Assembly (NCBI RefSeq): GCF_035084215.1
Contig: NC_090338.1
Location: 21,514,001 to 21,578,000 of the forward strand
Source of the DNA: Heptranchias perlo
Taxonomy: Eukaryota
Reading direction: 5' to 3'
DNA: 64,000 nt
Below, piece after piece: positions 1 to 63,770 of this stretch. Below the pieces are notes generated by a model. The model worked only from the letters and a program-made list of their open reading frames with translations, had not been told where the DNA came from and searched no databases. How positions within the stretch are numbered: the first letter of the stretch is position 1; the number at the start of each line of letters is the position of its first letter. Position numbers and translations under genes: made by a program.

Positions 1-1981
1 AATAATTTTGCAGTGCACGTCCCTGTGTAATAAGACGACCCCTCCCTTGTTCAAAATGGCTATCATCAACAAGCCCAATTTTCCCCTCTCTGGTTTTGCA
101 CATTGTTGGCAATGCTACAGGGCATCATTAAATAGTGGGCATCTGGCCCTCTGTTTGCCAGTTGTCAATTTTTGACTCGTGTTTATCTGCACATAGTTAA
201 GCAATGGTTTACAAAAGAAAAGAAATCAAATATGGCAGCAGACTCGCACTGCCCCGATGCAGAACTCCAAGAAGACAGTGAGAATTGCCATTTTCTGACC
301 ACATGCAACTTATCATGAATGCATTAATCGAGGAAGCAAAGGCTTATGACTGCAGGAACTGCAGTATTCACAAGCAACATGACCTGTTATTGTGACCGTT
401 TGATTTTGGTTTACCATCTTGCCTCCCCTCTCCCTCCTCCAATGCCCGACCTAAAAATGAATTTCTATCACTGAACTTGTCATGCCTTAATTACCCAGAA
501 GAACATTTTATTTGTTCAATTAAAAGACGTTGGAAATTATTTTTATGTTGGGTATAAGTTGAACAAAAAGACATTTCTAAATCTTGGTTTATTCATATTT
601 ATTCCATTTTGTTCATTTAAATAAGTTAAATTATTATTTTTCTAAATTATGTATTCTTGCCTGAAGACCTTTCAGAAGTGTCCCCTCGAGCTAAATTACA
701 GTCCTTCTCTAATCTGTACTGAAGTTGCAACCTTTGGGGAAAGTTATTTTTTTAAAAAAAGCTTTGCAATTATTAATGTTCTCAAAGAGTTCCATTTATG
801 AACTATCCCCATTTAAATTCTTGTCTGGAAAGTGAGTTATAGGTCTGTTTTATAAAAAGTACATTCTTATACAAATTTTAGTGAGAGAAAAAAGTATTTG
901 AGTTGTCGACGCCAGGCCCTACAGTGGCTTTCTGCTTAACCTTCTGCTATCTCAATGAAAGAAAAGCAGAATGGCCCAGGGGAATGGAAACAATGACTGG
1001 GAAGGGATTATGGAAGGGATGCAATCACTTGATGGATATCTGATTGTTTCGGTACGAGATTCTACATCGACGGCCATGCTGCTTCAGGCAGATTGTAACC
1101 GGAGAAACAAGGGGTTAAAAGATACTGAGCAATTTGTCTGTCTCTAATTTACATGTGTGTACAGCTGTTCCAAGTGTGTGTGGGGTCAGGCTATGTGGCA
1201 TCGGTGCAGGTAGTTTGTCCATATTGATGTCTTGAGGGAGCCCATTTGGGGACAGCAAAATACTATCTTGCATTTTTCTGTATTCTAAAATAATCATGTT
1301 GATTGTTAGGTAGAAAATTGCACTGGGCATTTAACAATGAGGTAAAGGATCATTTTACAAGGCAAATATCTAATGGAGTTACTTGTCAACCTATGGATTT
1401 AATGCTCGTACAAGATAAAAACCCACACAAATCAATCCTAATATAAAGCATTACAGCAGACTGAGATGTAGAGAGATACTTAACAGGCATTGCAATTAGC
1501 TTAAAGGAGCAGTATCCTTTTTCAAATCGGTTTGCCAGTCAATATCATAAATTTGAAATTTACCAGCATTGGTGCTCAGTAAAGTAGTTGGTGTTCAGGT
1601 AAAATGATGATGCAGTGGCACAGTGTTGGTATACCAGTACGTTGTAAATGCTTCTTCGATTTCAACTATGTTGAAATCAAGACTCAATAAACAGTCTCCT
1701 GCTCCATTTCAGTCATTTCCAGGACCTCACAACCTGCTTCAGTCCTTCCATCCTTCTTAGAATTTCTAGGCATTTAAAACCAAAGCTTGGTGTCACAACC
1801 ATCAATTCCATAATAATACCATCTCCTACTTTTACTTTTTTTTAACTTGTCTTGCCTTGCTTTTTGGACCCTGGGCCTTCCTGTTGGTTTCTCCATTAAA
1901 AACACGGAGTATGGGATTATACATGTGATCAATAAGGAGCTTCATCACATTTTGAGTCATTAAAAAAAAGTCTATTTTTAG

Positions 1982-11149: not shown

Positions 11150-11400
11150 ATTTTCCAATGAGGATCCTTCATGCTGACATGTTGAAAAGAAGGGAAGGAT
11201 CAAGGAGGGGTGTCAAGCTGCCTCAGAGGTACTAGCATACTCTAAAGAGAGAGGTGAAAAGTCCTCATTTTGGCAGACATTGAGCTGTTGTAGGCTCCTC
11301 TTCCCAAAGGAAGCTGTGTCAGAAGATTTCCCGATGTCATCACAAAGAAATGTGAATGCCTGACCAACCTTTGTGCTGGAAGCTTCTTCAGCAGCATCCC
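11150..11400 (+). pseudogene. Possible heavily decayed Harbinger transposase N-terminus
   Basis: Short translations CCRLLFPKEAVSE and NLCAGSF resemble the RRRFTRHVVVDIC and ALHNFSSASFQ segments of the Harbinger remnants elsewhere in the window. There is no ORF. Confidence 0.3.
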
Positions 11401-13759
11401 AATCATAACATGCTATGCTTTACATAATAGTGCATGAAAGAAGGCATGCCAGGGTGACCAAGAGCCAGCATTACCTGATGGGCTGCAGCTGGCAAGATGC
11501 TGCCAAACATTTCTGCAGCCCTGGCATGCTGCAGAGGGCTGGGACAATAATGGCCAGCTGAAGTTTGGAATCATCATCTTACAGGCATGCTGCGTTGCAG
11601 GCCAGTGGGGATGTTGCTGCGGAATGGGACAGAGGACAACCTTTTTTTACAGGCATCCCAGGCAGTACCATCTTGACTTCACCAGCATACACAGGTATTG
11701 GATGCTACTCCATCACTTGGCTACAGACTGATGCCTGCACCTAGGTTTCTCTTGCCCTCCAACTTTGTCTGCTATTTATTAATCTCCTGCCCTTTCAGCC
11801 TTTGCAAGGGCTGCTGATGGGGTTGAGATCCATAAGGCTCTCCAAAAGCATGTTGAATTTTTGTTGCCCCTTGTGTAATACTTATTTGTCCGTATCACTT
11901 CTAATTTCATTTACACACAATTTTCCTCTCCTGCCACTCAAATCTTTCTAGATCTTTCTGTGCTTGCACCTGGAGATGTGAATAATTATTCAAATTAACC
12001 TAGGTTGGAGAATTGAGTGGTGTTTGTCCTTGAGAGTCAGGTCAGGTTAGGGCCAATTCTAAACTAGTTGCACCTGAAGAGGATAATCTGCCTGTTAGTT
12101 ATCCCTCAGCCAGTGAAGATGTAGCATCATTTGTTTGTGAGATGTCATTGGTGCAGAATCATTGCAATATTTGCATACATAATAAGACATTACATTCCAG
12201 AAATAATTAATTGTGCAAGTGCTTTGAGATGGTTCAGGGTGACAACGTGCATTGTAAATGCGCAATAGTACGGGGAAAAAAAAGTTTTAAGCTTATAGAT
12301 GCCAGACCAATTGGTATCTGCCGATTTTTGTTTCAGCAGTGCCCAAACTTCTCTCCCAAATTTACCCAGACAGTGCGTTTTAATGCCAATTTCAGAAAAT
12401 TAAACAGTATGATGTTTTAATTTCCCATTCCTATGGGATCTCTGGGTGAGATTGTTGAGTCAATGCCAGTTGTTGCAGCTGAATTTGAGGATGGTATTGT
12501 ACTGTGGGCATGTGTCCCATGTCCACTGGGTTGAGACTGGCCAAGCCAGAAGTTGTCATGCCATCTGTCTCCAAGGGGTTTCTATATTAATTTTTTTTTT
12601 CATTTTGTTATTTTTTTTTCCCCAGTGCAAGCATATCCTTCTGTCTATACTAACCTCCTCAGCCAGGAGAATGGAATCCATCTTTGTCTATAGTCAATTC
12701 ATGTCTAATTCATTCACCAGGAGGGTAACAGCTGAACAGTATTTGACCATCCAGTTCCACAAATTTGATAACTGTCTCGAATTGTCGTGCTTGCTCCCAG
12801 CCCCTGAACTTGACCGTTCAACCATATCTTGACAATAGTTCGCCAGTGACTCCTCAGTGGTAAATCCTTTAGGTACTTCTCTGTGCTGCAGGTGATCCCT
12901 TACCCTGGACAGATTTTCCTCCCTTTATACAGATGCACCGAGCAGAGGGTGGGCCCCCTCTATTAGAGTAGGCCATCGTAAGTCAAAATTGCATCTGCCA
13001 GTTAGAAGTTTGATGTTTCTAGTACTGCAGCACTCCCAAACCACAACAGATTGATCTTGTTGAGGGCTATCAAAAAGAAAATATGTGTTTGTGAAGCAGC
13101 GGCATTCCTTTTAAAAATTGATCTACTCATCAAGTTTCATGTCAGTTTCATAAATTTGGAATCAGTTCAGTGGTAATTGCTACATATAAGAGTAGAATTT
13201 AAGAGAGGGCACATTAAGTAAGCAGTCACATTTTATGTAATTGTGTATATATAGAATTACGGTTTGTTGCAAGTGAGTAATAAGGCTGCAATTTATTCAA
13301 TAAAATGGAAATCAGACTGATGATAGTTAAAAGCCATTATACTGACTGAAGACTATAAAAGGGTATTTTGATTCCATCGCTGCAGAATAATAATATCTAA
13401 CGACTCACAGGAGGGTGTAATAAAGAGAATAACAGATATCTGAAATGACATAATATCATAAATGACATAATATCAGGTAGAATGATAAACAGAGAGAGCC
13501 TGAACTTGCTCCTGTCTGTCATCTGAACCCCAAAGTGACATAGTTGCCTCAAAATAACTCCAGCGTATCATTCTTTATAATCACTGCTATAAGGCTTTTG
13601 ATCTTTACATCTACTGAAGGCAACCATGGTGGACACTGAGAGCCAGTACCTTCTGTGTCATTGTTTGTGATGCTATCCACACTAGAAGATTGAGTGGGAT
13701 GAAGGATTATTGAATAGGAATGAACAATTGAGGCCCAGTTATGTCATTTCAGATATCTG

Positions 13760-14150
13760 CGGTAGTCGGGCGGGTGGTTAATATGGTGGTCACGCGCTTG
13801 CCGCTGTGTTCCCGACGCTTTTGCGCCTGCCGTCATATTTAACGCCACCAATACCGATCGCGGGAAAATCATCTGCCACATGCAGGCGGGTGCCTCATCA
13901 ATATTTATGTCATGGTCCAATGATGTCATTCAGATCGCAACGTGATTTTAAATCGCGATCACAGCTACGACTTGGGGGTGGGGGGGTCAGGCAAGATTGT
14001 GGCCAGGAGTCCCAGGTAAGTTCAATTTTTTTTTGCTTTTTCTTTAAAGGTTTCCTTGTAGGCCAGGAGGAGAAGGTGTGCTCCTCCGGGCTCCACAAGG
14101 AAACCTTGGGCCTCCCCTGCCTCAGGATTCCCTCCCCCGATCGTGATTGC
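13760..14150. mobile_element. CpG-rich non-autonomous DNA-element remnant (Harbinger-type?)
   Basis: Abrupt CpG-rich island in AT-rich sequence, similar in style to the subterminal regions of the Harbingers. No clean TIR pair was found. Confidence 0.3.
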
Positions 14151-15515
14151 CTCTTGCAATAGAATTCACAGCCTTTTGTTTATCTCTTTTATTTCATGGC
14201 TTTAAAAAAATCCCTGCTAAAAGCTGACAATGAACACCATGCACTGTTACCTTCATTGGAGGGCAGCAAATATCCCAGAGTGAAGTAAAGATTTCAGATT
14301 TAAACGACAGAGAATGACACTTCACTTGCCCCTCCTCCTCAGCTCGCTGGTATCAGCAATGCCAGTGATCAATGTACCACCTTATGAACCTAAGTATTAT
14401 TTGTGATGGAAGCTTTCTCAGAAACAACCATCAGGAACATACGAGTGCACAGGACAGGAAAATACCATTTCCATCCATCTGGCCAGCCTCAGACTTGATA
14501 AGCAGAAAACACAGTTTACTACGAATCTCCCCCAATTGATTGTCTTGCCAAATACCTATCCAACTCTCACTTAAAATGACTGATGTTGCTATCCTCGATC
14601 ACCTTCCTGAGCAGTCCATTCCAAGCATTCACCACCCGCTTTGTAAAAGAGTTATATTTGATCTCTCGAATCCCCTTCCCTGTTCTGAGCTTCATGAAAA
14701 GTATGACAGAGATCAGTTTATATCTTTATACATTTTGTCCAAATAGGTGGAAAATGAAATGAGGCGTGGGGCTTATTCTCAAAAAGCAAAATAATTCGTA
14801 CTTGGATCAAAACATGTTTATTTTTGGTTTCGGATAAACTGTTTGCACTTTGATATAATTACCTTGAAGGACAGTGTAGCTGTTCTCTAATGCTCAAACC
14901 ACTTAAGATGTTGTGTGAGTCATGTGGAAAGTAAATTATTTCTAAGCATCTTCTTATGTGCACTTTAATTAGATTCAGAAAAGTTTATCTTTTCTTTATT
15001 TATTCCACCTATTAATGATAATTATTTTTGTTTTCTTTCACTACCCATTTTCTGTGAATTTACTTTAGGTCTCCTCACATGTATGTGTAGCATCTCAGAG
15101 GATGTGTCCACAGACCCATTCTAGGTTTCTGAGAGTGTCATTCAAATGTAGGTTCACCATTTGAGAGATGATGAGAAGAGACAAGGATGAATCAATCATT
15201 TTTCCCCATTAAATTTGAAATTTTTCTTTTAAATTCTCCTTGTATTCTCAGGTGAGAGACTGATTCTTAAACTTGGCAAAACCTCTTTGAACAGTCAGTT
15301 TCACTTCCAAGCCTGTTATCTTAAAATTTGATTAAGGCTAGGCAGCTGGCCTATTAGTTAAGCATAAGGCTCACTGGTGTAAAGTAAGCAGAACAGCTAC
15401 GAATAGGCAAGACCCTTCGTTTACTTCATATTCTTACCTCCGAACTGAAAACTGTATATAAACATATCAATTAATAAATTTACACTTTTATCACATCTAC
15501 CAAAGATATTTTTTC

Positions 15516-15780
15516 TTTTATTCATTCATGGGATGTGGGCATCGCTGACAAGGCCAGCATTTATTGCTCATCCCTAATTGCCCTTGAGAAATGTAAGGAA
15601 TCTTACAACACCAGGTTATAGTCCAACTTTTTGACTATAACCTGGTGTTGTAAGATTCCTTACATTTGTCAACCCCAGTCCATCACTGGCATCTCCACAT
15701 CATGCGCTTGAGAAGGTGGTGGTGAGCCGCCTTCTTGAACCGCTGCAGTCCGAGTGGTGAAGGTACTCCCACAGTGCTGT
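15516..15780 (-). mobile_element. CR1-clade LINE family B 3' end, interrupted by a Penelope mini-element
   Basis: Matches the 3' end at 35330-35465 (ttcatgggatgtgggcatcgctg..taattgcccttgagaaggtggtggtgagccgcc). Confidence 0.85.
15591..15703 (+). mobile_element. Fold-back Penelope mini-element (no ribozyme left)
   Basis: About 35-bp inverted arms (aaatgtaaggaatcttacaacaccaggttatagtc and its reverse complement), then the Penelope terminus gtcaaccccagtccatcactggcatctccacatcat. Flanked by gcccttgagaa / gcgcttgagaa. Confidence 0.8.
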
Positions 15781-15784
15781 TCGG

Positions 15785-15883
15785 AATATTTCAAAGCACT
15801 TCACATATGATGAATGCTGTTATCATGCAGGCAAACTCAACAGCCATTTTGTGCACACCAAAATCCCATAAACAGCAAAGAGA
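15785..15883 (-). mobile_element. Deu-SINE 3' part, split by a CR1 insertion
   Basis: cagccattttgtgcacaccaaaatcccataaacagcaa resembles 8320-8360. The SINE continues at 18562. Confidence 0.6.
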
Positions 15884-18561
15884 CATAAGGACAGTAGTGA
15901 GAAAGGTTCTTAGCTCAGAAGATCAGGAAGTAGAATCAGTATGGGTGGAGATAAGAAATAACAAAGGGCAGAAAACACTGGTTGGAGTAGTTTATAGGCC
16001 CCCTAACAGTAGCTGTACCGTTGGACAGAGTATTAATCAAGAAATAATAGGACCTTGTAACAAAGATAATGCAATAATCGTGGGAGACTTTAATCTTCAT
16101 TTAGATTGAGCAAATCACATTGGCAAAGGTAGTCTGGAGGACGAGTTCATGGAATGCATTCGAGACAGTTTCCTAGATCAATATGTCGTGGAATCAACCA
16201 GGGAACAGGCTGTTTTAGATCTTGTATTGTGTAATGAGTCAGGGTTAATTAGTAATCTCATAGTAAAGGATCCTCTGGGGAAGAGTGATCATAATACGAT
16301 AGAATTTTACATTGAGTTTGAGAGTGACATACTTAAGTCTGAAACTAGAGTCTCAAACATAAATAAAGCCAATTACATAGGTATGAGGGTCAAGTTGGCT
16401 AAAGTAGATTGGGAAGTTAGATTAAAAGGTATGATGGTAGATAAGTAGTGGCAGACATTTAAAGAACTATTTCAAAATTCTCAGCGATTATACATTCCAT
16501 TGAGAAATAAAAGCTCCACGGGAAAAGTGATCCATCTGTGGCTAACTAAAGAAGTTAAGGATAGTATTAGATTAAAACAAAACATTTATAATGTTGTGAA
16601 GAATAGTAGTCAGCCTGTGGATTGGGACAGTTTTAGAAACCAACAAAGGATGACCCAAAAATTGATAAAATGGGAGAAAATAGAATATGAGAATAAACTA
16701 GCAAAAAATATAAAAACAGATTGTAAGAGCTTCTACAAGTATTAAAAAGGAAGAGAGTAACAAAACTAAATGTTGGTCCCTTAAAGGCTGAGACAGGATA
16801 AATTTTAATGGTGAAGGAAATGGCAGAGATGTTAAACAAATGCTTTGTATCTGTCGTCATAGTAGAAAACACAAGCATACCAAAAATAGTGGGGAACGAA
16901 GGGGCTAATGAGAGTGAGGAACTTAAAGTAATTAATATCAGAAGAGAAGAAGTATTAGAGAAACTAATGGGACTGAAAGCTGACAAATCCTCTGGACCTG
17001 ATGGCCTACATCTGAGGGTTCTAAAAGAGGTGGAGATAGTGAAGAAATAGTGGATGCATTGGTTGTGATCTTCCAAAATTCCCTAGATTCTAGAATGGTC
17101 CCAGCGGATTGGAAGGTGGCAAATGTAACACCGCTATTCAAGAAAGGAGGGAGAGAGAAAATAAGGGAACTACAGGCCAGTTAGCCTGACATCAGTCGTC
17201 GGGAAAATGCTGGAATCCATTATTAAGGAAGTGGCAAAAGGACACTCAGAAAATCATAATATGATTGGGCAGAGTCAACATGGTTTTGTGAAGGGGAAAT
17301 TGTGTTTAACAAATCTATTAGCGTTTTTTGAGGGTGTAACTAGCAGGGTAGATAAAGGGGGAACCAGCAGATGTAGTATATTTGGATTTTCAAAAGGCAT
17401 TCGATAAGGTGCCACATAAAAGGCTGTTACGCAAAATAAGGGTTCATGGGATTGGGGATAATATATTAACATGGATAGAGGATTGGTTAACGGACAGAAA
17501 ACAGACAGTAGGGATAAAGGGATCATTCTCAGGTTGGCAGGCTGTAACTAGTGGGGTGCCGCAAGGATCAGTGCTTGGGCCTCAGCTATTTACAATCTAC
17601 ATTAATGACATAGATGAAGGGACCAGGTGTAATGTATCCAAGTTTGCTGATGGTACAAAGCCAGGTGGGAAAGTAAGCTGTGAGGAGGACACCGTGAGTC
17701 TACTAAGGGATATAGATAGGTTACGTGAGTGGGCAAGAAGGTGGCAGATGGAACGTAATGTGGGGAAATGTGAGGCTATTCACTTTGGTAGGAAGAATAA
17801 ATAAACAGGATATTTTTTAAATGGTGAGAAACTATTAAATGTTGGTGATCAGAGAGATTTGGGTGTTCTCGTACAAGAAACACAAAGTTGATATGCAGGT
17901 ACAGCAAGAAATTAGGAAGGCAAATGGCATGTTGGCCTTTATTGCAAGGGGGTTGGAGTACAAGAGTAAGGAAGTCTTGCTACAATTGTACAGGGCTTTG
18001 GTGAGACCACACCTGGAGTACAGTGCATGGTTTTGGTCTCCTTTTCTAAGGAAGGATATACTTGCCTTATAGGGGGTGCAATGAAGGTTCGCTAGATTGA
18101 TTCCTGGAATGAGAGGGTTATCCTATGAGGAGAGATTGAGTAAAATGGGCCAATATTCTCTGGAGTTTAGAAGACTGAGAGGTGATCTCATTGAAACATA
18201 TAAGATTCTGAGGGGACTTGACAGGGTAGATGCTGAGAGGTTGTTTCCCCTGGCTGGAGAGCCTAGAACTGGGGGGCATAGTCTCAGGATAAAAGGTCGG
18301 CCATTTAAGACTGAGATGAGGAGGAATTTCTTCACTGTGAGGGTTGTGAATCTTTGGAATTCTCTACCCCAAAGGGCTGTGGATGCTCAGTCGTTGAATA
18401 TATTTAAGGCTGAGATAGATAGATTTTTGGACTCTAAGGGAATCAAGGGATATGGGGATCGGACAGGAAAGTGAAGTTGACGTTGAAGATTAGCCATGAT
18501 ATTGAATGGCGGAGCAGGCACAAGAATGAACTACTCCTGTTCTTATTTCTTATGTTCTTAT
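15884..18561 (+). mobile_element. CR1 LINE family A, endonuclease-to-3' end, decayed
   Basis: APE motifs VGVVYRPP, IIVGDFN, LDLVL, LGKSDH; RT motifs DFQKAFDKVPH, GVPQGSVLGP. Ends in a ttcttatg tail, with gaga on both sides. Confidence 0.95.
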
Positions 18562-18855
18562 GAGATGAATGACTGGTTGATCTGGGTTTTTTTGTGTTTG
18601 ATGAGGGAGAATTGATGACCAGGACACTGGGTGCACTCTAGCTCTTTAAATAGTATCATGGGATCTTTAACGTCTACATAAACTGCTAGAACTGACAGGA
18701 AAGTCCTCAGTTTAACATCTCATTCAAAGGGTGGCACCTCAACAATGCAACACTCTCTCAGCAAGGCATTGAAGTGTGTTCAAGTGCTGGAGGGGAGCTT
18801 GAACCCACAACTTTCTGGCTTTGTGGTGAAAATCCTACCAACTGAGTTATAATGA
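18562..18855 (-). mobile_element. Deu-SINE 5' part (tRNA-like head plus Deu core)
   Basis: cctcagtttaacatctcattcaaagggtggcacctc is the Deu core in reverse; cttgaacccac is B-box-like on the minus strand. Confidence 0.7.
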
Positions 18856-19519
18856 CAGATGGATAGAGATTTCATAGTTTGTTGATGTGCATGCAAGGTC
18901 TGATGAAAATTGAGAGAGACAGGGATCCTAAACAGTGCGTTTCTGACTGCTTGATGTAGTGTTCTGTTGAAGAAATGTAAGTTCCAGCTCTTCATCTGGG
19001 ATTAGTCCAATGCTCTGCAACTGGAAAATATCCTAAATTGTTCTACAGATATAGCTGAAGTCTAAAACGTATATTAATGCATATACTGATTGGCGTGATT
19101 ATGCAATAATGATCTTCAAAAAGATATTTCTTTGGTTGAGACACTTGGGTACTTGGATACTTCTGGTTGAGACAGAACCAGAGTTCAAGCCTTCTGCATT
19201 TTCTTTCGGTAGATACTGTTAAGTTTCTGGGTTTTACCACAGATAGTTGTCTTAGCTTCAACATCTCAGTTGACTCCTGTGAGTGAGTTTTCACCCTATG
19301 AATTAGAGTTTGTCTTTGGTATCTCGAAGTGCGTCTGGGATAGAACGGAAGACTCTTGGCACTGCATTTCACTTTACTAGTTTTATATGTGACCTCATAC
19401 GATCTTTCCCAACTTTGAAAGCAGAATAAACACTCCATTCGACTCTGGCTTCCTCTATCAACTGCCAAACAGATTTATTAAACAGTAAGTGGCTAAGTGA
19501 ACAATGCCAATGGCACACT

Positions 19520-19628
19520 GTAGATTTATTTGAAGTCAGTGGGAAGTAAAACCGGGCAGGATGTAAGCCGGATGGCAGCGCCGATCCTGTCATTTACCCG
19601 CCAGGTGGGTTAAGTTAACATTACCCTC
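19520..19628. mobile_element. Right half of a small MITE (same family as 51106-51218)
   Basis: ggatgtaagccggatggcagcgccgatcc..gttaacattaccc resembles 51149-51218. Confidence 0.45.
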
Positions 19629-20449
19629 CATATGTACTATAAAAGGAAGAAAGAAGCTGATAACATGATACATCAAAACCAAAATGCTTCAATTTTGCCA
19701 CAGATACATCCATCTTAAAATCAAAATTCATTATAATTTTAAAACAGTTTGCTTGGCTTTTCTGAATATTAAATTTACTCAGCATTTGTCAAATTCACAT
19801 TTTTCCGGGCTGCAAGAGATTGAAGTCGCAAATACATCCGCCAGTGATTAATCAGTTTCATTTCTCTGGCTCTGTCAAAATTCTCTGATCCTTTCTTTGT
19901 GATTCCATCTGGGATGGGTCCCACTCCAGTGTTGTTTTGTTTGTTTTATGTGTGCCAATTCAGCATTTGACGTGATAACCTATGTGTTTTGTTTTGCTTG
20001 ATGATGTGTTTGTACAACGTTGTCAGTCAGTCTATTGGAAAAGAGAAACATAACTGAGTGGTGGCTCAAATAATGCTAATCAGTCAGGAATGTCCACAAA
20101 CAGGGCTTAGACCAAATTAATAGGCCATTCCTCGCCAACTGGAGGAACCATAATTTGTTGTATTTTAGTGGGGTGACTTTTTTTTGTCAAGAGAAGAGAT
20201 AAAAGTAATAAGAAAAAACAGCGCATGTTGGAAAGGTAAAATACATTTCAGATGAAGGGTGCTACCTAAAACAGCCTTTTTCTTTCACGTGCTGATTGGT
20301 CTCTGGTGATTTCTAGCACTCTCACCTGGAATTTCTGCAGGATTCTCCCGATCTCCCGCTGTAACTTTGATAGAACATCAGTAGAAACCCTGATGAGACA
20401 GCACTGTTTACACTCTTTCTCCAGGGCTACCACTGACTTTCTGGAGAGC

Positions 20450-20659
20450 ATGATGTGGAGATGCCGGTGATGGACTGGGGTTGACAATTGTAAACAATTT
20501 TACAACACCAAGTTATAGTCCAGCAATTTTATTTTAAATTCACAAGCTTTCGGAGGCTTCCTCCTTCGTTCACCTGAGGAAGGAGGCAGCCTCCGAAAGC
20601 TTGTGAATTTAAAATAAAATTGCTGGACTATAACTTGGTGTTGTAAAATTATTTACAAT
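20450..20659. mobile_element. Fold-back Penelope mini-element with an intact hammerhead
   Basis: Terminus atgatgtggagatgccggtgatggactggggttgac is the same as at 63504. Inverted arms of about 82 bp (20486-20567 / 20579-20660). 12-bp direct repeat tttctggagagc at 20438-20449 and 20660-20671. Confidence 0.88.
20569..20607 (+). ncRNA. Minimal type I hammerhead ribozyme
   Basis: UUCAC-CUGAGGA-A-GGAGG-CAG-CCUCC-GAAAG-CUU-GUGAA. Perfect helix I and helix II, both catalytic cores, and a palindromic loopless helix III (AAGCUU). Predicted cut 3' of 20602. Confidence 0.85.
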
Positions 20660-21139
20660 TTTCTGGAGAGCGGGAGACTCCCATGAAGTTCTCCACCTCT
20701 GTTTTATTTTATGACCGATAACAGTGCTGACTAATTTTTGAACCCAGTGTCAGCATCAAGTAGTGCTGGGGCAAGTCTATAAGGAGTTAACTGAGGTTAA
20801 AATCCTTCTGCACTGCTCAACAATGTGCTTTGCTTCACAAACTCATGAGAAAAAAAATCCTACTGCACTAGAAAACATTTCCATTTCCCTCCCCAACCAT
20901 CCTTGTGGCCTTTCAGAGTGAAATTGCCAACATCATGCCAATTTATGTTGAGTTTTGAACTGTGGACCCACACTCACAAGGAATTTATTGAGCCTGCCTA
21001 CATTCAATTTCCTTAAGCCTCTTATAGGCATTGGAGAATGAGGAGGTTTTCATCATATCAGTCTGAATTGACTTTGAGCCCAGGTCGCAGAGTTAAAGGA
21101 CAGTTTACTAATTGACTGCACCACTGCCTCAATACCTCA

Positions 21140-21302
21140 GTAAAAAGTACCTGGACTTGCACGTAAAGTGCTGTAAGTTGCAGGACTACGGACCGGGTGC
21201 TGGAAGGTAGGATTAGAGTGGGCACCTGGTTGTCCTTCGAGCCGGCGCGGACACAATGAGCCGAATGGCCCCCTTCTGTGCTGTATCTTCTCTATGGTTC
21301 TA
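21140..21302 (+). mobile_element. CR1 3' end fragment
   Basis: Ends gagccgaatggcccccttctgtgctgtatcttctctatggttcta, a typical CR1 3' UTR and tail. Confidence 0.65.
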
Positions 21303-22583
21303 CCTCTTGCTGTCCTCATGAAATGCTTGACAAGAGAGTGACAGGTTTTCATGATGGACCTGAGATCTGCAAGATGATCAGAAGTGGACATATTTACTTT
21401 GTGGTAGTCAGATGGGGAAAATGAGGTTCTACCCAAAGTAGGGTAGAAAACAATTTATTCTGTCTTCATAACTGTCACAAGTATGTAATAAGGAAATGAA
21501 TGATTCAGTACTATTTTACTCTGTGATTGTTGGCCATTTCACTCTCACTATATAAGCCCAGCAACCATTGTTCAAAATGCACCAGATAATAACTATTTCA
21601 TCTTTCTCTGGCACTACTCTTAGTAGAAGGGATTGGGAGCAGTAAATGGGATTCATTTTTCTATTTATACATGTTCATTGTGTAAATGAAGGGTGATTTT
21701 TTTTCCAACGTTGAATAGCCTGACTGAATAATACTGAGGAGTAAAAAGGTGAGGAAAGAGAAAATAAATGACGGATAGAATACAGGACTTACTATTGGAA
21801 AGAAAAAACTGCCCAAAGGAAAATGACAATAGCTGGAGAACTGCTGGAGGAAGATGTACATTTTTTTAAAACTATTTTTCCACTTACTGCCAATAAGTAA
21901 CAAAAGAAAAATCTTAAGCTCCTTGTAACCCTGCACCTTCTATGGCTAAAAATACTGCTGAACATGTTAAGTCACTGCCAGGTATCTCCGAGCATAGAAT
22001 AAATGGCAAATCTTTTGTAATTGAGCCCTTAGATTTTGTGCTCAATATTCAGTCACAGAGAATTTACCATTTAAATAATTGGAAAAATGGTAAATTGACT
22101 CTCTGAAGGACATTCATGGTTACAACAGTATCCTTTCACCTCTAGCTGTGATTCCAGCTCAGACCGATTAAATTCTCTTCTCTCTAGTCCTGTGTGCAAT
22201 GAAAGTGGTCAATCTCAGTGCAGTTCCAACTTGGCTCAGGTACACAGACTAAAGCCTCCTGTAACCCCGGTATAAATTGTATTGAACGATTCATTTAATT
22301 CTTTGTTATATTGTTTTAAGTTCAGTTTAGTCTCAGTTGCTCATTCAAGTCCAGAGATATGGTCTGAACCATGCAGTCGATGCCAAAGGGTGCTTCATGT
22401 TATAATATAACTGCGCACACAACAGTGGGATGAACTGCTCATGGCCCACTCATAATCATTTAATTTTTGCCAATTTTCTTCCCTTCTCCACCATCTCCTT
22501 CTCCTCTGAAGGCACTGAAGTATGGTTCCACAGGTGCTAATTGCTCTCCACCTTGCCAAAGTGACCATTCTTTCTGTGTAGGC

Positions 22584-22709
22584 CTTCTCCCCTTCTCCTC
22601 TTCCCCCCCCCCCACCCCAGGACATAACCGAGGGCCACTGCCAGCAAAGCAAATGGCCCAAAATTCAATCCTCCTGAAGGGCGAGCTGCCTACGGAGGCC
22701 CAATTTCAG
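22584..22709 (+). repeat. 126-bp direct repeat of 26931-27061
   Basis: Identical except for poly-C length and two substitutions. Both ORF translations share PLPAKQMAQNSILLKGELPTEAQFQ. Confidence 0.9.
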
Positions 22710-23124
22710 TGACCGTTGGCAGGATAATCAACCAAGTCCAATCTTGCTCTCACTGATGACCGCACGCGTGCACTTCCAGCAGAGGTCACTGGATAGCAAT
22801 CAGAAACAGGGGTAGAAATTGGTCACCTGGAAAACATAGGAACATAGGAAAATAGGGCCCGATTTTACCAGGCCTGCGGGTTTCCGGCGGGTTGGGTTTC
22901 GGGAGCGTGGTCAACACGCTGGGTGAAATTAGTGGGTTGCCCGCGCGATCGTAGCAGGCAACACACTAATTGGATCCACTTACCTGCTCTTCCGGGCTCC
23001 GCGCTGCTGGTCTGCGCGTCGGGCGGGCTGCGCATGCGCAGTACGATCTGTCAGCTGGAGGCTCTCTAGTTAAAGGGGCAGTCATCCACTGACAGATGCT
23101 GCAACCAATAGAACAAATTACAGC

Positions 23125-23354
23125 ATGGAGCAGCCCAGGGGGAAGGCTGCTCCCAGTTTAATGATGCCTCACCCCAGGTATTATCAGATGGGGTGAGGAG
23201 GAGGGGGAGGACAGAGCTCTTCCACCCGGCGGGCGGGAGGAAGCGGCCTGCCTCTGCCACCAAGAAGGCCTGGCTCGAGACCTGCACCACCAACATATCG
23301 CCCACCTGCATACAGTGCAGGAGGCGCTCCAATGACCGCAGTAGGTCAGCCACA
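23125..23354 (+). pseudogene. Harbinger Myb/SANT-like DNA-binding protein, first exon, frameshifted
   Basis: MEQPRGKAAP, frameshift, then FNDAS..GRKRPASATKKAWLE..CIQCRRRSNDRSRSA, followed by a gtgaga donor-like site. Confidence 0.75.
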
Positions 23355-23919
23355 GTGAGAACACGTAGTCTTTCCCCTACACTCCGTCTGCCACAACACT
23401 GCCCCCACTCCACATCTCCTTCGGCACCGCCAACACTACTCTGTCACATCAACCCTCATACCCACTCAAACCACATCCTCATCTTACCTGCACCTACACA
23501 CCTCGCGAGTACTCACCCCGCCACTACCACGCAACCCAATCCTCATATAATCTCATGGCTCTATCCCATACTCACCCTCTCGTGCATCTCCCTCACGGCC
23601 AGCCTCACTCAACCTGCCACCACCTGTGCTGCAGCCACAGGGCATGCATCACATATGTGCATTAGGCAGCGTATGGCAAACGTATCGTGAGCATGAAGGG
23701 GATGCACAAGGGTGTTTGAGGGTTTGTCATGGGTGTTACCTATATTGAATTTCAGAACAACTCACATCACACATTATATTGGCACCACCACTGCCATGTC
23801 TCCGCAAATCCTGTCTGTTTTGTGCAATAATGCCCGCTCCTGGGTATCACTATGAGGACCCACCACTGATGCCACCCATTGTGTTACTGCAGAGTAGGTG
23901 CAGGTGTATTTGCAGGGCT

Positions 23920-24360
23920 CCTCCGCGCAGACGACTGAGAGACATCGGCGGTGTACCCGGCTGCACCCTGGAAGGATGCGGAGGAGAAGTTGTGGAGGGC
24001 AGTGGTGACTTTGGCAGCGACAGGTAAGCAGATGGTGCTGGGGCCAGCCAGGAGCAGCTCGGCATGAAAGAGGCTGCAGATGTCCACGACTACATGTCGA
24101 GTGAATCTGCGCCTCCGTGTGCACTGCTGCTCAGAGAGGTCCAGGAAGCTGAGCCTCGGTCTGTGGACCCTGTGGCGAGGGTAGTGCCCCCTGCGACGCG
24201 TCTCTCTCTGCGGTAGCCCTCCCTCCTGCTGTACAGGTGGATGTGTCACAGCACTCTGTTGTGGAGCTCCACGTGTCAGAGGTGGACGGCATGGATGGTG
24301 AGGCTGGCGATGTTGTGCGCCCTCCGAGGAGGTCATGACTGCAGCTACGGCGGCCCCCAT
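23920..24360 (-). pseudogene. Harbinger (HARBI1-like) transposase N-terminal HTH remnant
   Basis: HYPRHRVHRPRLSFLDLSEQQCTRRRRFTRHVVVDICSL..LPVAAKVTTALHNFSSASFQ. The catalytic DDE region is absent. Confidence 0.8.
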
Positions 24361-24894
24361 CCGCAATATGTACATCTGAGGGGGTCCGCAAGGTAGGCAC
24401 ATGTCTCCGGACCCTGGGGTGAGTGTGCAGGTTGGTGACTTTGACCGTCAGGAGGGGGGTGGTGGAGGCCACACTTTGTCCCAAGTGACAGAGCAGCCTC
24501 CTGCAATGGGTGAGGGTCTCCCCCACCCAACTGTCAAATGGACCTTTGCAGCTGCCACAGGCTGACGGCTGCAACACATCCAGTTCAACTTATACTGTTT
24601 CCCCCAGTGTGTGAAACAGTCCCATGTTTCTCCAAAATCACACACAGTCCCTTAATCAGGTCAGTTAATGACCTGAACAAGCAAAATAAATACACTCAAG
24701 TGGCATCCCGCTGGCTTTAATTGCCTGCAGGTTTCCCACCAGCGGGGGCTGCGCACGCACCGCCGCACGTCATCGGGGAACCCGGAAGTGGGCGGGATCG
24801 TGGCGCGATCTGGTCACGTGCCTGGATATCGGGATTTTCGGGGGCCCCCCCGCTGGAAACGCACACGAAACCCGCTGGTAAAATCGAGCCCATA

Positions 24895-26563
24895 GGAACA
24901 GGAGGAGGCCATTCAGACCCTCGTGCCTGCTCCAGGCCATTTGATAAGATCATGGCTGATCTGTGATCTAACTCCATATACCTACCTTTGGCCCATATCC
25001 CTTAATACCTTTGGTTGCCAAAAAGCTATCTATCTCACATTTAAATTTAGCAATTGAGCTCGTATCAATTGCCATTTGTGGAAGAGAGTTCCAAACTTCT
25101 ACAACCCTTTGCGTGTAGAAATGTTTTCTAATCTCGCTCCTGAAAGGTCTGGCTTTAATTTTTAGATTGTTCCCCCTACTCCTAAAATCCCCAACCAGCA
25201 GAAATAGTTTCTCTCTATCCACTCTATCTGTTCCCCTTAATATCTTATAAACTTCGATCAGATCACCCCTTAACCTTCAAAACTCTGGAGAATACAACCC
25301 CAATTTGTGTAATCTCTCCTCGTAACTTAACCCTTGAAGTCCAGGTATCATTCTAGTAAACCTACGCTGCACTCCCTCCAAGGCCAATATGTCCTTCCGA
25401 AGGTACGGTGCCCAGAACTGCTCACAGTACTCCAGGTGCGGTCGAACCAGGGTTTTGTATAGCTGCAGCATAACCTCTGTCCCCTTGTATTCTAGTCCTC
25501 TAGATATAAAGGCCAGCATTCCATTTGCCTTCTTGATTATTTTCTGCACCTGTTCATGACACTTCAATGATCTATGTACCTGAACCCCTAAGTCCCTTTG
25601 GACATCCACTGTTTTTAACTTTTTACCATTTAGAAAGTACCCTGTTCTATCCTTTTTTGATCCAAAGTGGATGACCTCACATTTGTCTACATTGAATTCC
25701 ATTTACCACAGTTTTGCCCATTCACCTAATCTATCAATATCGTTTTGTAATTTTATGTTTTCATCTACACTGCTTACAATGCCACCAATCCTTGTGTCAT
25801 CGGCAAACTTAGATATGAGACTTTCTATGCCTTCATCTAAGTCATTAATAAATACTGTGAATAATTGAGGCCCCAAGACAGATCCCTGCGGGACTCCACT
25901 AGTCACATCCTGCCAATGTGAGTACCTTCCCATTATCCCTACTCTCTGTCGCCTTTCGCTCAGCCAACTTCCTAACCAAGTCCGTACTTTTCCCTCGATT
26001 CTATGGGCTTCTATCTTAGCTAACAGTCTCTTATGTGGGACCTTATCAAATGCCTTCTGGAAGTCCATATAAATAACTTCCATTGACATTCCCCTGTCCA
26101 CTACTTTAATCACCTCTTCAAAAAATTCAATCAGGTTTGTCAGGCACGACCTACCTTTCACAAATCCATGCTGGCTCTCTCTGATTAACTGAAAATTCTC
26201 GAGGTGTTCAGTCACCCTATCTTTAATTATAGACTCCAGCATTTTCCCCACAACAGATGTTAGGCTAACTGGTCTATAATTCCCTGGTTTCCCTCTCTCT
26301 CCTTTCTTAAAAAGCGGAGTGACATGTGCAATTTTCCAATCTGGAGGGACAGTTTCTGAATCTAGAGAACTTTGAAAGATTATAGTTATGGTATCCGCAA
26401 TGTGCTCACCTACTTCCTTTAAAACCCTGGGATGGAAACCATCTGGTCCTGGGGATTTGTCACTCTTTAGTGCTATTATTTTCTTCATTACTGTTGCTTT
26501 ACCTATGTTAATTTTATCGAGTCCCTGTCCCCGATTCAACATAAATTTTCTTGGGATTTCCAA
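24895..26563 (-). mobile_element. Young CR1 LINE, 5'-truncated; tail displaced to 22835-22854
   Basis: ORFs 25703-26596, 25277-25702 and 24968-25222 form an almost continuous RT to C-terminus. Nearly identical to 58605-60078. Confidence 0.95.
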
Positions 26564-26930
26564 TACGTTTCCAAAATGTCGGGCAAAAATGACCAATTTT
26601 GCAGGGCTCTGCCCTGCACCCCAGTGATGCCTGAAAAAAAATCTGACGCCATAATAGTCTCAGATGATTTTCAGGCGTTCGGCCGCCTAAAGCAGGCATC
26701 AGGCCCCTTACCTATGCTAATAAGGGGCCTAACACCTCTTTTAGGACCCCTCATGGAAATTGGGCTGCCCTCAGTGAAGCTGGCACAGGCCTGCTCCGCT
26801 CAGGTTTTGCTGGCGTGGATATGGCCTCGCCTTAAAGGTAGTGTAAAACTTAATTTTTTTTTAGTAACGTGGAGCTCCACCCGGATCCACAGCACTCCTA
26901 CTGGCCGCAATCGCCCCACGCTTCTGCCAT

Positions 26931-27061
26931 CTTCTCCCCTTCTCCTCTTCCCCCCCCCCCCCCCCACCCCAGGACATACCCGAGGGCCGCTGCCAGCAAA
27001 GCAAATGGCCCAAAATTCAATCCTCCTGAAGGGCGAGCTGCCTACGGAGGCCCAATTTCAG
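26931..27061 (+). repeat. Second copy of the 126-bp direct repeat
   Basis: See 22584-22709. Confidence 0.9.
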
Positions 27062-28250
27062 ACCAGCCTTGGACCTCTCTGTTCAGGTGCGCTGCTCATG
27101 GAGTACCGAGTCTGGGCCCAAAAACCCCAACTGACTTTCCCTTCCCTAGCCTAGTTTTTCCAAGGCCATTTATACCATGTCTGCCAACACTCCAGCTAAA
27201 ATCGACTCAGTACACGACCAAAGGATTGAACTTTGGATCTTCCAGATCAGTAAAGCTCAGCTACTGACTGCCTCTCAACCATTAGTAGAAAACTCATCTT
27301 AATTTTTAGAGTATAATTCTAAACACTAAACCTGACTCCACTCCAGAACACTGCCTGCAGATGGCCTTTGCCCAACAAAACACCAGTCATTGGCTTTAGT
27401 GATCAGTAGCAGGCCTCCCCCATTCTTCCAAAATTTGGAAGGTTCTTTCAGCTTTGTCTCTTGCTGACATGAGTTCACTGGAGGATTATTACAACACTTG
27501 CATTATTAAACAGAAATTCAAAATGTTTAATTAGGAGCTGATTATATGGTCTTACAACTAGGGATCAAGTTACATTACTGTTGCAACATGAGAAGATGAA
27601 CTGCATTTTCCCTTTTTCAATGATTAACAGGCCAATTTAAAACAATAGCAAAATATCTAGAATGCATTTTGGGAAGCCGAGATAGGCTTGCAACAATAGA
27701 GGACAAGAGACGCAGGTAACATCCGTAATGGTGTTCTTGCGTGTGTTCTGAGCTCTGCTACAATGTAGTGCTTTAAATGACCCCTTGTTCTCTCTTGCAT
27801 CCCACAGTGCGTGTGAACACGACCTTGTTATGGAGGTGATTTTACCCATGTTGAGGAGTGCTAAGCAATGCAAGCTGAAAGGGCAAACCATTTCACTGTT
27901 CTGCAGTCCTTATAAAGTGCATTGACAGAGGTTAAGCAATCTAGGTCGGGAGAACAACTATTTTGGTTTGTGTTACTGCTAAGGCTGACTGGCGAGAATA
28001 TGCCTGTTGGCACTTGGCAGTAATCCTACCAGATTCCACTTTTGCTGAATTTTGTAGAGATGGAAATATAGTTTACCTCTTTCATGGTTCCAGAGAGCTT
28101 ATTTGTACATCCAAAAGTATTATATGATGGCGTTTTATTAACGTATGTTTTTGTCCTGACATTTTGTCCATCAATGTAAGAGAACGGAGGTGAAGGTGAG
28201 GAACATTTTTCCTCACTGCATCCAGTAATACCAACAAGCACTCTGGCACT

Positions 28251-28886
28251 ACAGCAAGCAATTAGGAAGGCAAATGGTATGTTAGCGTTTATTGCAAGGG
28301 GGTTGGAGTATAAGAGTTAGGAGGTCTTGCTGCAATTATATAGGGCTCTGGAGAGACCACACCTGGAGTACTATGTACAATTTTGGTCTCCTTACCTAAG
28401 GAAGGATATACTTGCCTTAGAGGGGGTGCAACAAAGGTTCGCTAAATTGATTCCTGGGCTGAGAGGGTTGTCCTATGAGGAGAGATTGAGTAGAATGGAC
28501 CTATATTCTCTGGAGTTTAGAAGAATGAGAGGTGATCTCATTGAAACATATAAGATTCTGAGGGGGCTTGACAGGGTAGATGCTGAGAGGTTGTTTCCCC
28601 TGGCTGGAGAGCCTAGAATTAGGGGCATAGTCTCAGGATAAGGGGTCGGCCATTTAAGATTGAGATGAGGAGGAATTTCTTCACTGAAAGGGCTGTGGAT
28701 GCTGAGTCGTTGAGTACATTCGAGGCTGAGATAAATAGATTTTTGGACTCTAGGAGAATCAAGGGATATGGGGATCGGGCAGGAAAGTGGCGCTGAGGTC
28801 GAAGATCAGCCATGATCTGATTGAATGGCGGAGCAGGCTCAAGGGGCCATATGGCCTACTCCTGCTCCTATTTCTTTTGTTCTTAT
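28251..28886 (+). mobile_element. CR1 family A 3' fragment
   Basis: ORF 28327-28641 (LQLYRALERPHLEY..RFAKLIPGLRGLSYEERL), 3' UTR and ttcttat tail. Confidence 0.92.
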
Positions 28887-29031
28887 GAGATGAATGACTG
28901 GTTGATCTGTTTTGTTTGTGTTTGATGAGGGAGAATTGTTGACCAGAACACTGAGTGCACTCTAGCTTTTTAAATAGTATCATGGGATCTTTAATATCTA
29001 CATAAACCACTGGAACTGACAGAAAAGACCT
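28887..29031 (+). repeat. Copy of the SINE-derived 3' flank at 18562-18707
   Basis: gagatgaatgactggttgatctg..gtgcactctagct..aaatagtatcatgggatctttaa..gaactgacag follows the CR1 tail at the same junction in both loci. Confidence 0.85.
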
Positions 29032-31151
29032 GTTTCTTCTGTCCATATGTTTTTAATCTGTGCTCAGGGTAGACTGTAGGCTAGATGAACTACAGAGATT
29101 CCCTGTGTTACCTGACCATCACCTTTGCTGTAAGAGGCGGGCCTTTACTGCGGCAAGCCTCCCTGCACTGATGTTGCCGATGCACCACTAACCTCCAGAG
29201 GAATCCCCCTCCACTGCAAGATTGTGACATTTCTATCTTGCACGCCTTCACTCCTTATGGCCTTACAAAGCATTTGCTTGCAAAATCAGTTTGGTTGGCA
29301 CCTCGCCATGATTTGCATGTGCCAGTGCAAGAGAAAATGCTCCTCCCTCTTCAAGAAGTGTCATTTTTAGAGGAGGTACTCAATCAGGATCGTCATGTTG
29401 TGAGCACTGAAATGCCTGCTACTTGCATTTTCTCCATCTGTATGGACAGAGTGTATTGTGTAGAAACGACTCATGGAACAAAAAACTTAGCAATTCGATA
29501 CATTAAAAAAAACTCCCCACAGCCTGCAACCGTACAAATGTCCTCCCTCCATGCCCCCAATATTATTCAAAAATTAAACTTTAATTTGCAGGGCTCCTGC
29601 CCTCTGAAGAAATTAGTTCTCGATCCGTGGCCAAGTTTTTGCTCTGGACTCATCTGCACTGGGAATTAAGTTAACGGGAAACTTTAGACATACAGTTGAT
29701 TTGACCTCCTATGTGGAGAGATCTGTAATGTATTATCCTTTCCTGACGGGAATGGGTGAGGGGTTGTGTGAGTGAGAGAGAACGAGTGAGGGAGAATAAA
29801 GATGACGTGAAGTGTGATTTGTATTTGTGAAATATGTAGTTCAGCTTTACTTCCAATTAAGATGTCTGTTGAGGCTGAACCCTAAGCTTCAGCCTATTCT
29901 TCTCGCTTTACACTAGGCTGCGATAGTGCCCAGACTCCTTCAGACAGCTGCCAGAAGCAGGAAACGCAATTTCTGCTCTCTAACCTGGAGTGCAGCCAAA
30001 TCCCACAGAAAAAAAATTAAATAGTTTTAAAAGGTACAATTAGTACATTGATTTTGTAATTGATTCATTAAAATAAATTAAGATGATTGGAATAAAATAT
30101 TACCTGCTTTTTTTTTTCTTTTTCCCTGGTGTGTGTTTTATTCTTGACTCAGTTGTTTAATATTAAAATCTAAAGGTTTATTTGCCAAGTAACCCAAGTA
30201 TGTGACTAATTGAATTAAAAAACGTCAACTCTGATTTATTTTGTAGCCATTTCACTCCTGTCCCTGATCCTGTTCCACATTCTTTTCATAAGCTAAGCAT
30301 GCAGGCAGGCAACCTGTTACCAAGCCTCTGCCAAGGCCATCTTTGAACATAGCACTATCAAATGATCTAGAGAAGAGCCCTAATACTCCCAATTGTGATT
30401 TTGAAGTTAGTGTGTGTTTATGTGGGTGGGGAAGAATAGCAGTGCACCATCGGACTCCATCTTTCATATACCAACTTCATCAACTTAATCAGGCAACCAG
30501 CTGTCGGGCATCTGCCATTGTCACTCAGGGAGATGTGAAGGAATCGACTTGGGTAATTTTCCACCTCTGTGCAGAAGTATCTGGCCTCCACTTGGTGTCT
30601 CTGCTCAGAGATTCTACGGAGAACAGTAATTCAGTGGGAGAAACAAATCTGCATCCTACCACATCTATGCCTCTCTGCCGTTATATTCAGTTACTTCATA
30701 ACCTTTGTCCAGTGCATAGCTGCTGATTAAACTCAGAACAGAAACTTAGAATCAAGATGCGAATGTATCTCTATTTATAGGATCAAGTGGGAAGATTATT
30801 GCATCATGCACCATTTCTCATCCAAGTGGTTGGAGCGAGGACCTTCTTCCAACCTTCTTTTAATGTCACTTTGTAACTGTCTTTATGAAGGTACATAGGA
30901 ACAAACTGTGGAAAGGATGACTTCCCCTCCTATTTTGTTCCTCTTCCTCCCTGGGGAGAATGTTTCTTGTGCCTCCCACCTCATATTGTGAGAAAGTCTC
31001 TTGTTCAAATCCCATTGTCCCATCACTCCATGGCACAATGCTGTGGAGCACCAATGTGTCATAGCACCATATATGATAAATATTTTAAAAGTTGTCGTGG
31101 ATACCACTTCGGCATGAACCAAAATTATACATTAGCGTGTTTCATCGAACT

Positions 31152-63503: not shown

Positions 63504-63592
63504 ATGATGTGGAGATGCCGGTGATGGACTGGGGTTGACAATTGTAAACAATTTTACAACACCAAGTTATAGTCCAGCAATTTTATTTTAAA

Positions 63593-63631: not shown

Positions 63632-63770
63632 CGATGTGGAAATGAAGTCCTCGAAATGAAGTCGCATTTATAATTCACAGAACAATGCTGGTGATAACAG
63701 ACAGTTTTTTCAACTGCCCGTTGCCAAGGCAATCAGTGTGCAGACAGACAGGTGTTACCTGCCAGGTCTC

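What the first reader, a model, noticed from the sequence alone, without database searches (positions are those of the whole stretch)
20450..20659. Intact hammerhead ribozyme inside a 210-bp self-complementary mini-retroelement
Seen: a perfect minimal type I hammerhead (20569-20607) whose helix II, helix III and 3' helix I are also present as an antisense copy just upstream. Only GUUCACCUGAG is left as the loop of an ~82-bp hairpin. Established: Penelope-like element termini carry minimal hammerheads with palindromic helix III that are thought to work as dimers. Inference: read-through transcription would give a long dsRNA hairpin that sequesters the ribozyme, either a self-inhibited ribozyme or an siRNA/ADAR substrate directed against the parent family. 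It could also be a retrozyme-like non-autonomous unit.
Basis: partly seen in the sequence, partly recalled or inferred. Interest (0 to 1): 0.8.

Follow-up and report, generated by a model that had tools for sequence, protein, structure and literature searches.

The report
Two-armed stub of a Penelope retrotransposon
This 210-base mirror-image sequence is a stub of an abundant Penelope-like jumping gene, not a mobile unit of its own; such stubs across the genome suggest that the element likely copies the uncut front end of its RNA twice, once from each DNA strand, and sometimes likely from two different RNA molecules.

Summary
In detail: 85-bp arms, a minimal type I hammerhead at 20569-20607, and a 12-bp target-site duplication (TSD). 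It is a short insertion of a Penelope-like element (PLE) with at least 29,826 tailed copies and an intact 902-aa parent ORF. A tailed arm and a tail-less inverted arm of the parent's terminal repeat are joined head to head, a published layout. It is not a retrozyme: the exact junction has 54 copies, 0 of 214 sampled copies have it, and 91 two-armed copies show 82 different junctions. The family statistics bear on mechanism. Inner arm ends peak 29-31 nt after an invariant TATA box (53 of 238) and shift with it between subfamilies. Only 1 of 238 lies at the ribozyme cut site. Either arm can be the longer. In 94 of 1,761 junctions the arms carry different common parental alleles. Best reading: both target strands prime reverse transcription at two start sites about 35 nt apart, the cDNAs run to the 5' end of uncut RNA and are end-joined, sometimes from two RNAs. 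This disfavours the published self-priming model. Ribozyme sequestration is physically predicted but looks like a by-product; a small-RNA role is untested.

The parts
20438..20449 (+). Left copy of 12-bp target-site duplication
   Evidence: family TSDs are 11-16 bp in 102 of 107 inverted copies
20450..20485 (-). PLE 'tail': parent positions about -34 to +2 relative to the ORF ATG; present at one end only; inferred stretch between the two RT start sites
   Evidence: Runs straight into the ORF ATG in tandem copies L121/L122; tail = span between RT start sites in PMC11167929
20486..20567 (-). Arm A: tailed copy of the parent terminal repeat, inner end at about -116, lacks the CUGAnGA core
20566..20569 (.). 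Head-to-head junction microhomology (TC, or TCGT if arm A came from an N7=C template)
   Evidence: N7=C in 44 of 54 exact junctions against 4,879:5,310 in parents, p=7e-7
20566..20659 (+). Arm B: tail-less inverted copy, parent -129 to about -36; two substitutions not seen in arm A (20587, 20651)
   Evidence: arm B outer ends lie at -33 to -39 in 91 of 107 copies
20569..20607 (+). Minimal type I hammerhead of the PLE terminal repeat; predicted cut after 20602; cleavage not shown
20613..20618 (+). AATAAA, inferred polyadenylation signal of the parent
   Evidence: sequence; inference
20660..20671 (+). Right copy of 12-bp target-site duplication

Best explanation
The element is one short head-to-head insertion of an endonuclease-bearing Penelope-like retrotransposon, likely made by twin priming: both strands of a staggered target break likely prime reverse transcription on the 5' leader of uncut element RNA. 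SHOWN: intact parent ORF; TSD; tailed end at about -1 to +3 and tail-less end at about -35; junctions differ from copy to copy; inner ends peak at TATA+29 to +31 and avoid the hammerhead cut; arms usually share alleles but sometimes carry two different common alleles. INFERRED: the protein nicks the two strands about 12 bp apart; one 3' end primes at the ORF-start site and the other about 35 nt upstream; both cDNAs run towards the transcription start just upstream of the hammerhead; their ends are trimmed and joined by microhomology (here about 21 and 9 nt short of the inferred start); in at least some events the two cDNAs come from two RNA molecules, as a protein dimer holding two RNAs would give. 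The copy has no TATA box or ORF and is likely dead on arrival; the hairpin is a by-product.
For: Parent: 902-aa ORF, Pfam RVT_1 E=2.5e-10, same tailed/tail-less/TSD layout in full-length insertion L121. 108 of 165 short copies have an inverted arm. Arm B reaches further upstream in 37 of 91, arm A in 19, equal in 35, so arm B is often not a copy of arm A. Inner ends (n=238): 53 at TATA+29..31, 72 at +27..32, 1 at the cut site +-1. Subfamily shift: 27:15 against 10:32, Fisher p=3.7e-4; best 3-nt window 53 of 114 relative to TATA against 39 relative to the hammerhead, 0 of 5,000 label shuffles reached 53. TATA-to-start spacing of 30-31 is the optimum in mouse (PMC1779604 abstract). Arm concordance: mean 0.57 differences within against 4.58 between copies, n=60. 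Discordance: 94 of 1,761 junctions are C/G at N7; controls C/A 1, G/A 1, G/T 15 of which 12 are one identical junction on three small contigs, CpG-type C/T 19. C arm tailed 15, G arm tailed 13 of 30; 2 of 30 differ at three linked sites. In vitro, the anole PLE protein cleaves and extends both strands, starts at two internal sites bounding the tail, uses uncut RNA and is predicted to be a dimer (PMC11167929).
Against: No RNA 5' end was observed; the start site rests on TATA spacing. 45 of 238 ends lie upstream of TATA+27, and the subfamily with a 39-40-nt TATA-core distance has median +24.5, with a second cluster near +19 to +25. The cap-G test was not significant (11 of 31 against 11 of 58, p=0.12). 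Loop-II discordance is not higher in N7-discordant copies than at baseline (7 of 30 against 3 of 20, p=0.72), which a clean two-RNA model might predict. About 95% of junctions are concordant at N7, so one RNA for most events is not excluded. Subfamily labels came from best matches to 54 long copies and can bias end calls. 35 of 57 non-inverted short copies showed no TSD in my test and are unexplained.
Confidence: 0.75

Rival explanations
1. Self-priming or fold-back: one cDNA (or an antisense template) folds back and copies itself, giving the inverted arm. This is the model of Arkhipova et al. 2013.
For: Palindromic junctions occur and were so interpreted (PMC3846280 passages); arms are usually identical; 35 of 91 copies have arms ending within 2 nt of each other.
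Against: The tail-less arm holds sequence absent from the tailed arm in 37 of 91 copies, including this one, while the tailed arm holds the tail. Arms carry different common alleles in 94 of 1,761 junctions. Two identical cDNA ends can only anneal at a palindrome, so end joining also predicts palindromic junctions (inference).
Confidence: 0.12
2. Twin priming on one RNA only; discordant arms come from reverse-transcriptase error hot spots, quasi-palindrome correction at N7, or later gene conversion.
For: 95% concordance at N7; no enrichment of second-site discordance (p=0.72); L274 and L277 share a rarer variant in both arms while differing at N7; N7=C perfects a 4-bp TCGT/ACGA hairpin.
Against: C/G discordance (94) far exceeds other non-CpG classes (about 1, 1 and 4 events); three-site haplotype switches in L272 and L284; the upstream T/C site is concordant in 11 of 11 scorable loci and G arms carry T in 17 of 18 against 4 of 14 at baseline, which is unlike random ectopic donors; N7=C also occurs in subfamilies lacking TCGT.
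Confidence: 0.3
3. The 210-bp unit is itself a non-autonomous retroelement (retrozyme- or MITE-like) spreading from one origin.
For: 54 copies share the exact junction, on many contigs, each inspected one with its own flanks.
Against: 0.18% of tailed copies; 0 of 214 sampled; at least five mirrored haplotypes among 30 copies, each also present in other copies; junction variants L017, L023, L029; enrichment follows microhomology length (44:10); no promoter; no tandem units.
Confidence: 0.04
4. The hairpins are functional: intronic copies yield dsRNA that is diced or edited and restrains the family.
For: About half of sampled copies (103 of 214) are short two-armed hairpins, which scales to roughly 14,000 among the 29,826; family sequence is abundant in contigs of four runs of one sample guessed to be RNA.
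Against: No small-RNA or editing data; no conservation of this locus tested; two unrepaired substitutions in arm B. Not exclusive with the best explanation.
Confidence: 0.2

Closest known systems
Endonuclease-bearing PLE insertions with inverted 5'-truncated copy, pseudo-LTR and 30-40-bp tail (PMC8557442, PMC3846280; passages read)
   Same: Head-to-head inverted arm, tail at one end only, TSD, hammerhead in the terminal repeat, partial tandems.
   Different: Both arms are usually stubs of about 90-140 nt; their inner ends map to TATA+30; those papers propose self-priming or endonuclease resolution, and the passages I read report no allele-discordant arms.
Poseidon of Anolis carolinensis in vitro (PMC11167929; parts 1-2 of 4 read)
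   Same: Two internal RT start sites bounding the tail, both strands cut and extended, uncut RNA as template, predicted dimer.
   Different: There the start sites and hammerhead lie in the ORF; here the tail ends at the ATG and the hammerhead is in the leader. The parent here has the CX4CxxC linker that Poseidon lacks. The parts I read do not explain inverted arms.
Minimal hammerheads of metazoan PLEs (PMC4209133; parts 1-2 of 4 read)
   Same: Extra base after A9, G10.1-C11.1, palindromic 15.2-16.2, short helix I; dual motifs on opposite strands 100-700 bp apart were already noted.
   Different: Their proposed cut-then-circularise template is not seen in these stubs: 1 of 238 ends at the cut site.
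Animal non-LTR retrozymes (bioRxiv 10.64898/2026.07.22.740005; parts 1-3 of 5 read)
   Same: PLE terminal-repeat origin, type I hammerhead, non-coding.
   Different: Retrozymes are head-to-tail tandems with at least two hammerheads; this is one head-to-head insertion with one.
LINE-1 twin priming (recalled, not read)
   Same: Both target strands prime; inversion closed by microhomology.
   Different: L1 primes one end at the poly(A) tail and the other at a variable internal site of the same RNA, copying different segments; here both starts are fixed and the same segment is copied twice.

Membership tests
EN+ Penelope-like element | Parent ORF with RT domain and DKG motif | tested here: met
   P0001, 902 aa, RVT_1 E=2.5e-10; PADKGG
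EN+ Penelope-like element | C-terminal GIY-YIG endonuclease with CCHH motif | tested here: inconclusive
   Read by eye (VVY..C-x3-C..WYIG, downstream histidines); no Pfam hit at E<=0.1 and no PDB hit for this part
EN+ Penelope-like element | Pseudo-LTR with hammerhead, partial tandems | tested here: met
   L121, L122, L067, L069
EN+ Penelope-like element | Inverted truncated copy, 30-40-bp tail at one end, TSD | tested here: met
Neptune/Nematis-type PLE | CX2-5CxxC linker between RT and EN (absent in Penelope/Poseidon) | tested here: met
   CHGNLCKTC in P0001; feature from PMC8557442
Neptune/Nematis-type PLE | RT phylogeny | not tested
   no reference PLE set on hand
PLE minimal hammerhead | CUGAnGA, extra base, G10.1-C11.1, GAA, palindromic helix III, UH | tested here: met
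PLE minimal hammerhead | Covariation in helices | tested here: met
   Inner helix II pair seen as G-C, G-U and A-U, helix I with G-U swaps, among 54 long copies; counts are of related sequences, not independent events
PLE minimal hammerhead | Self-cleavage as a dimer | not testable with these tools
   dimer fold computed only (-20.7 kcal/mol against -36.0 for the best cofold)
Non-LTR retrozyme | At least two tandem units each with a hammerhead | tested here: not met
   single unit between TSDs
Non-LTR retrozyme | Amplifies as a fixed unit | tested here: not met
Non-LTR retrozyme | Circular RNA intermediate | not testable with these tools
   only contigs available

The most novel reading that the evidence does not exclude
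PLEs insert as a two-RNA dimer: each subunit nicks one strand, about 12 bp apart, and copies its own uncut, capped RNA from its own start site, and the two cDNAs are end-joined head to head. This one rule would explain the tail, the inverted arm, the narrow TSD range and the glut of ~200-bp hairpins, and implies that the hammerhead does not make the template's 5' end.
Probability: 0.45. Interest if true: 0.72.

Novelty: new member of a known kind. Interest (0 to 1): 0.45.

Why it matters
The locus itself is one of thousands of dead stubs. The family matters because how PLEs make their inverted arms, and what their hammerhead does, are stated open questions (PMC3846280, PMC8557442, PMC11167929). 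Here the genomic record gives counts that favour two independently primed cDNAs on uncut RNA over self-priming, and a direct test exists in the published in vitro system: mix two barcoded RNAs. The same process seeds a vertebrate genome with more than ten thousand near-perfect hairpins (extrapolated), a possible dsRNA source. Other agents in this scan reached parts of this picture in other genomes; the TATA+30 anchoring and allele-discordant arms were not found in my four look-ups there or in literature searches.

Tried and rejected
Rfam scan of the window: 8 hits, all microRNA-precursor models below their gathering scores and matching hairpins; no hammerhead. Hammerhead cut as the source of arm ends: rejected, 1 of 238. 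Non-templated G from the cap: not significant. Linked second-site discordance test: not significant. Sequencing runs: no RNA holder listed on record; X1-X4 are one sample, guessed to be RNA, contigs only. Laid on 20200-20900 and 11001-30900 they cover repeats, while the unique flanks had almost no cover, which proves nothing about expression of this locus; no editing-like difference was listed over the element. Host gene: 27 of the 67 long frames in the window were scanned; 8 gave RT or endonuclease fragments and none a host gene family, so whether the copy is intronic is unknown. PDB search with P0001: one weak RT hit, E=0.65. A first ungapped end-mapping was dropped for a gapped one. In the column-wise arm comparison (45 of 1,490 polymorphic against 45 of 5,881 near-invariant cells) L169, L064 and L039 are mispaired or edge artefacts, so I do not rely on that p-value. 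Supplements of the cited papers were not read; Frangieh Fig. S1-S2 and Cervera's vertebrate alignments may bear on novelty, as may subscription papers such as Arkhipova 2006 (not seen).

Full report
1. Observation. The inverted repeat is real: arms 20483-20567 and 20579-20663, 96% complementary, 11 nt apart, fold z -21.3. The + strand carries a minimal type I hammerhead at 20569-20607 with an extra A after the CUGAGGA box, a 5-bp helix II, the palindrome AGCU in place of helix III and a predicted cut after 20602. These features match the PLE minimal hammerhead described in PMC4209133 (parts 1-2 of 4 read). A 12-bp TSD flanks the element, and about 35 nt at the left end lie outside the hairpin.

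2. What it belongs to. The genome (G000, 3.25 Gb; the repeat looks like those of cartilaginous fishes, from recall, not tested) holds 29,826 exact matches to a 37-mer spanning tail and arm. Long copies lead to a 902-aa ORF with an RT domain (RVT_1, E=2.5e-10), a DKG motif, a CX4CxxC linker and a GIY-YIG-like C terminus read by eye. By PMC8557442 (passages) the linker marks Neptune/Nematis rather than Penelope/Poseidon; no tree was built. Taking the A of the ATG as 0, the hammerhead spans -126 to -88 and the tail runs to the ATG. Full-length insertion L121 has the same plan as the stub: tailed end, head-to-head junction, tail-less end, TSD. The window copy is the smallest form: arm A from +2 to -116 on the minus strand, arm B from -129 to -36 on the plus strand.

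3. Not a unit of its own. The exact junction has 54 copies. To sample without regard to junction I took the first 100 listed matches and 140 of the 200 listed matches of two flank-trinucleotide patterns. After de-duplication and context filters 219 anchors remained, 5 internal to tandems, 214 external; a few are segmental duplicates. None had this junction, and 91 good two-armed copies gave 82 junction types. Among the 30 best matches to the element, arms mirror each other's variants in 27 (L030 differs at two common variant sites; L001, L011 and L021 were the copies with a single change in the 13-nt helix II stretch, one more than this count allows if all three are excluded, i.e. 26 fully mirrored), and at least five haplotypes occur that are also seen in other copies. 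The junction is enriched for N7=C (44 of 54, against 4,879:5,310; p=7e-7), the allele that gives a 4-nt instead of a 2-nt microhomology. So this junction recurs; it does not spread.

4. Family statistics. Of 214 copies 49 have a long tailed arm and 165 a short one; 108 of the 165 have an inverted arm, 103 with both arms short. In 107 inverted copies the tail-less end lies at -33 to -39 in 91, and the TSD is 11-16 bp in 102. For 238 inner ends with at least 93% identity to one of 54 long reference copies, 53 fall at TATA+29 to +31, 72 at +27 to +32, 45 upstream of +27 and 1 within a base of the hammerhead cut. The TATA-to-core distance varies from 36 to 48 nt between subfamilies and the peak moves with the TATA box (p=3.7e-4; 0 of 5,000 shuffles), although the 39-40-nt group has a second cluster near +19 to +25 and median +24.5. 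A start 30-31 nt after the TATA box is the optimum in mouse (PMC1779604, abstract read). I infer that most arms are run-off copies of the 5' leader of an uncut transcript. An extra G from the cap was not shown (p=0.12).

5. One template or two. Arms of one insertion nearly always match (0.57 against 4.58 differences, n=60). But arm B reaches further upstream than arm A in 37 of 91, including here, which simple fold-back cannot give. Genome-wide, 94 of 1,761 head-to-head junctions of this subfamily carry C in one arm and G in the other at N7, against about 1, 1 and 4 events for the other non-CpG classes and 19 CpG-type changes. In 30 of the 94, either allele could sit on the tailed arm (15:13, 2 unscored), 7 also differed at a loop II site and 2 at three sites. 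Against a clean reading: baseline loop II discordance is similar (3 of 20, p=0.72), and two loci share a rarer outer variant in both arms. The upstream T/C site was concordant in 11 of 11, unlike random donors. Two RNAs from related, co-active masters is my best reading (about 0.6); error hot spots or conversion remain open.

6. Mechanism. Inferred: nicks on both strands about 12 bp apart; one 3' end primes at the ORF-start site, the other about 35 nt upstream; both cDNAs run to the RNA 5' end; trimming and microhomology joining close the gap. Each step but the last has an in vitro parallel in the anole Poseidon (PMC11167929, parts 1-2 of 4 read): both strands cut and extended, two internal starts bounding the tail, uncut RNA as the main substrate, predicted dimer. 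The published alternative is self-priming on an antisense template (PMC3846280, passages).

7. A + strand read-through would bury the hammerhead (42 kcal/mol in favour of the hairpin); the minus strand lacks the core. Since a single minimal hammerhead was inactive in PMC4209133 and needed protein in PMC11167929, inhibition is not needed to explain silence. The hammerhead is under apparent selection in the parent, not shown in the stub. dsRNA effects are plausible for a family with roughly 14,000 such hairpins (29,826 x 103/214, an extrapolation) but untested; the available runs are contigs of one sample.

8. Earlier scan notes (AI notes, leads only). e1-7858806 and e1-7858061 agree that the mirror arm is rebuilt each time and that ends pile just upstream of the core. 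e1-9822609 reports over-use of the cut site in another genome, which is not so here; e1-9850483 found it only mildly favoured.

9. Verdict. Interest 0.45, carried by the mechanistic signal in the family and its cheap decisive test.

Noticed in passing
window 50369-50562: Second two-armed stub of another subfamily, with a perfectly palindromic centre that lacks the hammerhead core in both arms, and its own TSD.
   Followed up: partly
window 15584-15703: Third stub with very short arms (about 42 nt) joined through a T run, inserted in a LINE fragment.
   Followed up: partly
window 63504-63690: Longer copy of the same subfamily that runs past the hammerhead and the TATA box, with no adjacent inverted arm in the part inspected.
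   Followed up: partly
L121:4561-7269; L122; L067; L069; L124: Several intact or near-intact ~900-aa ORFs at 99% identity within the first 5 Mb of contig C1: the family is young and may still be active.
   Followed up: partly
G000 contigs C284, C402, C1392: One junction occurs as 12 identical copies on three small contigs, suggesting amplification within a larger repeat.
   Followed up: no
L042, L084, L089, L104, L212, L261: Junctions with short templated re-copies of arm sequence, or a foreign C-rich insert, as seen in polymerase-theta-type end joining (recalled).
   Followed up: no
L274, L277: Both arms share a rarer outer variant yet differ at the hammerhead N7 site: template switching or conversion between arms is possible.
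   Followed up: no
long copies: TATAAATG and the hammerhead core are nearly invariant while the 36-48 nt between them vary in length and sequence between subfamilies.
   Followed up: yes
window 4355-59426, several places: Many LINE reverse-transcriptase fragments; no host gene family among 27 frames scanned.
   Followed up: no
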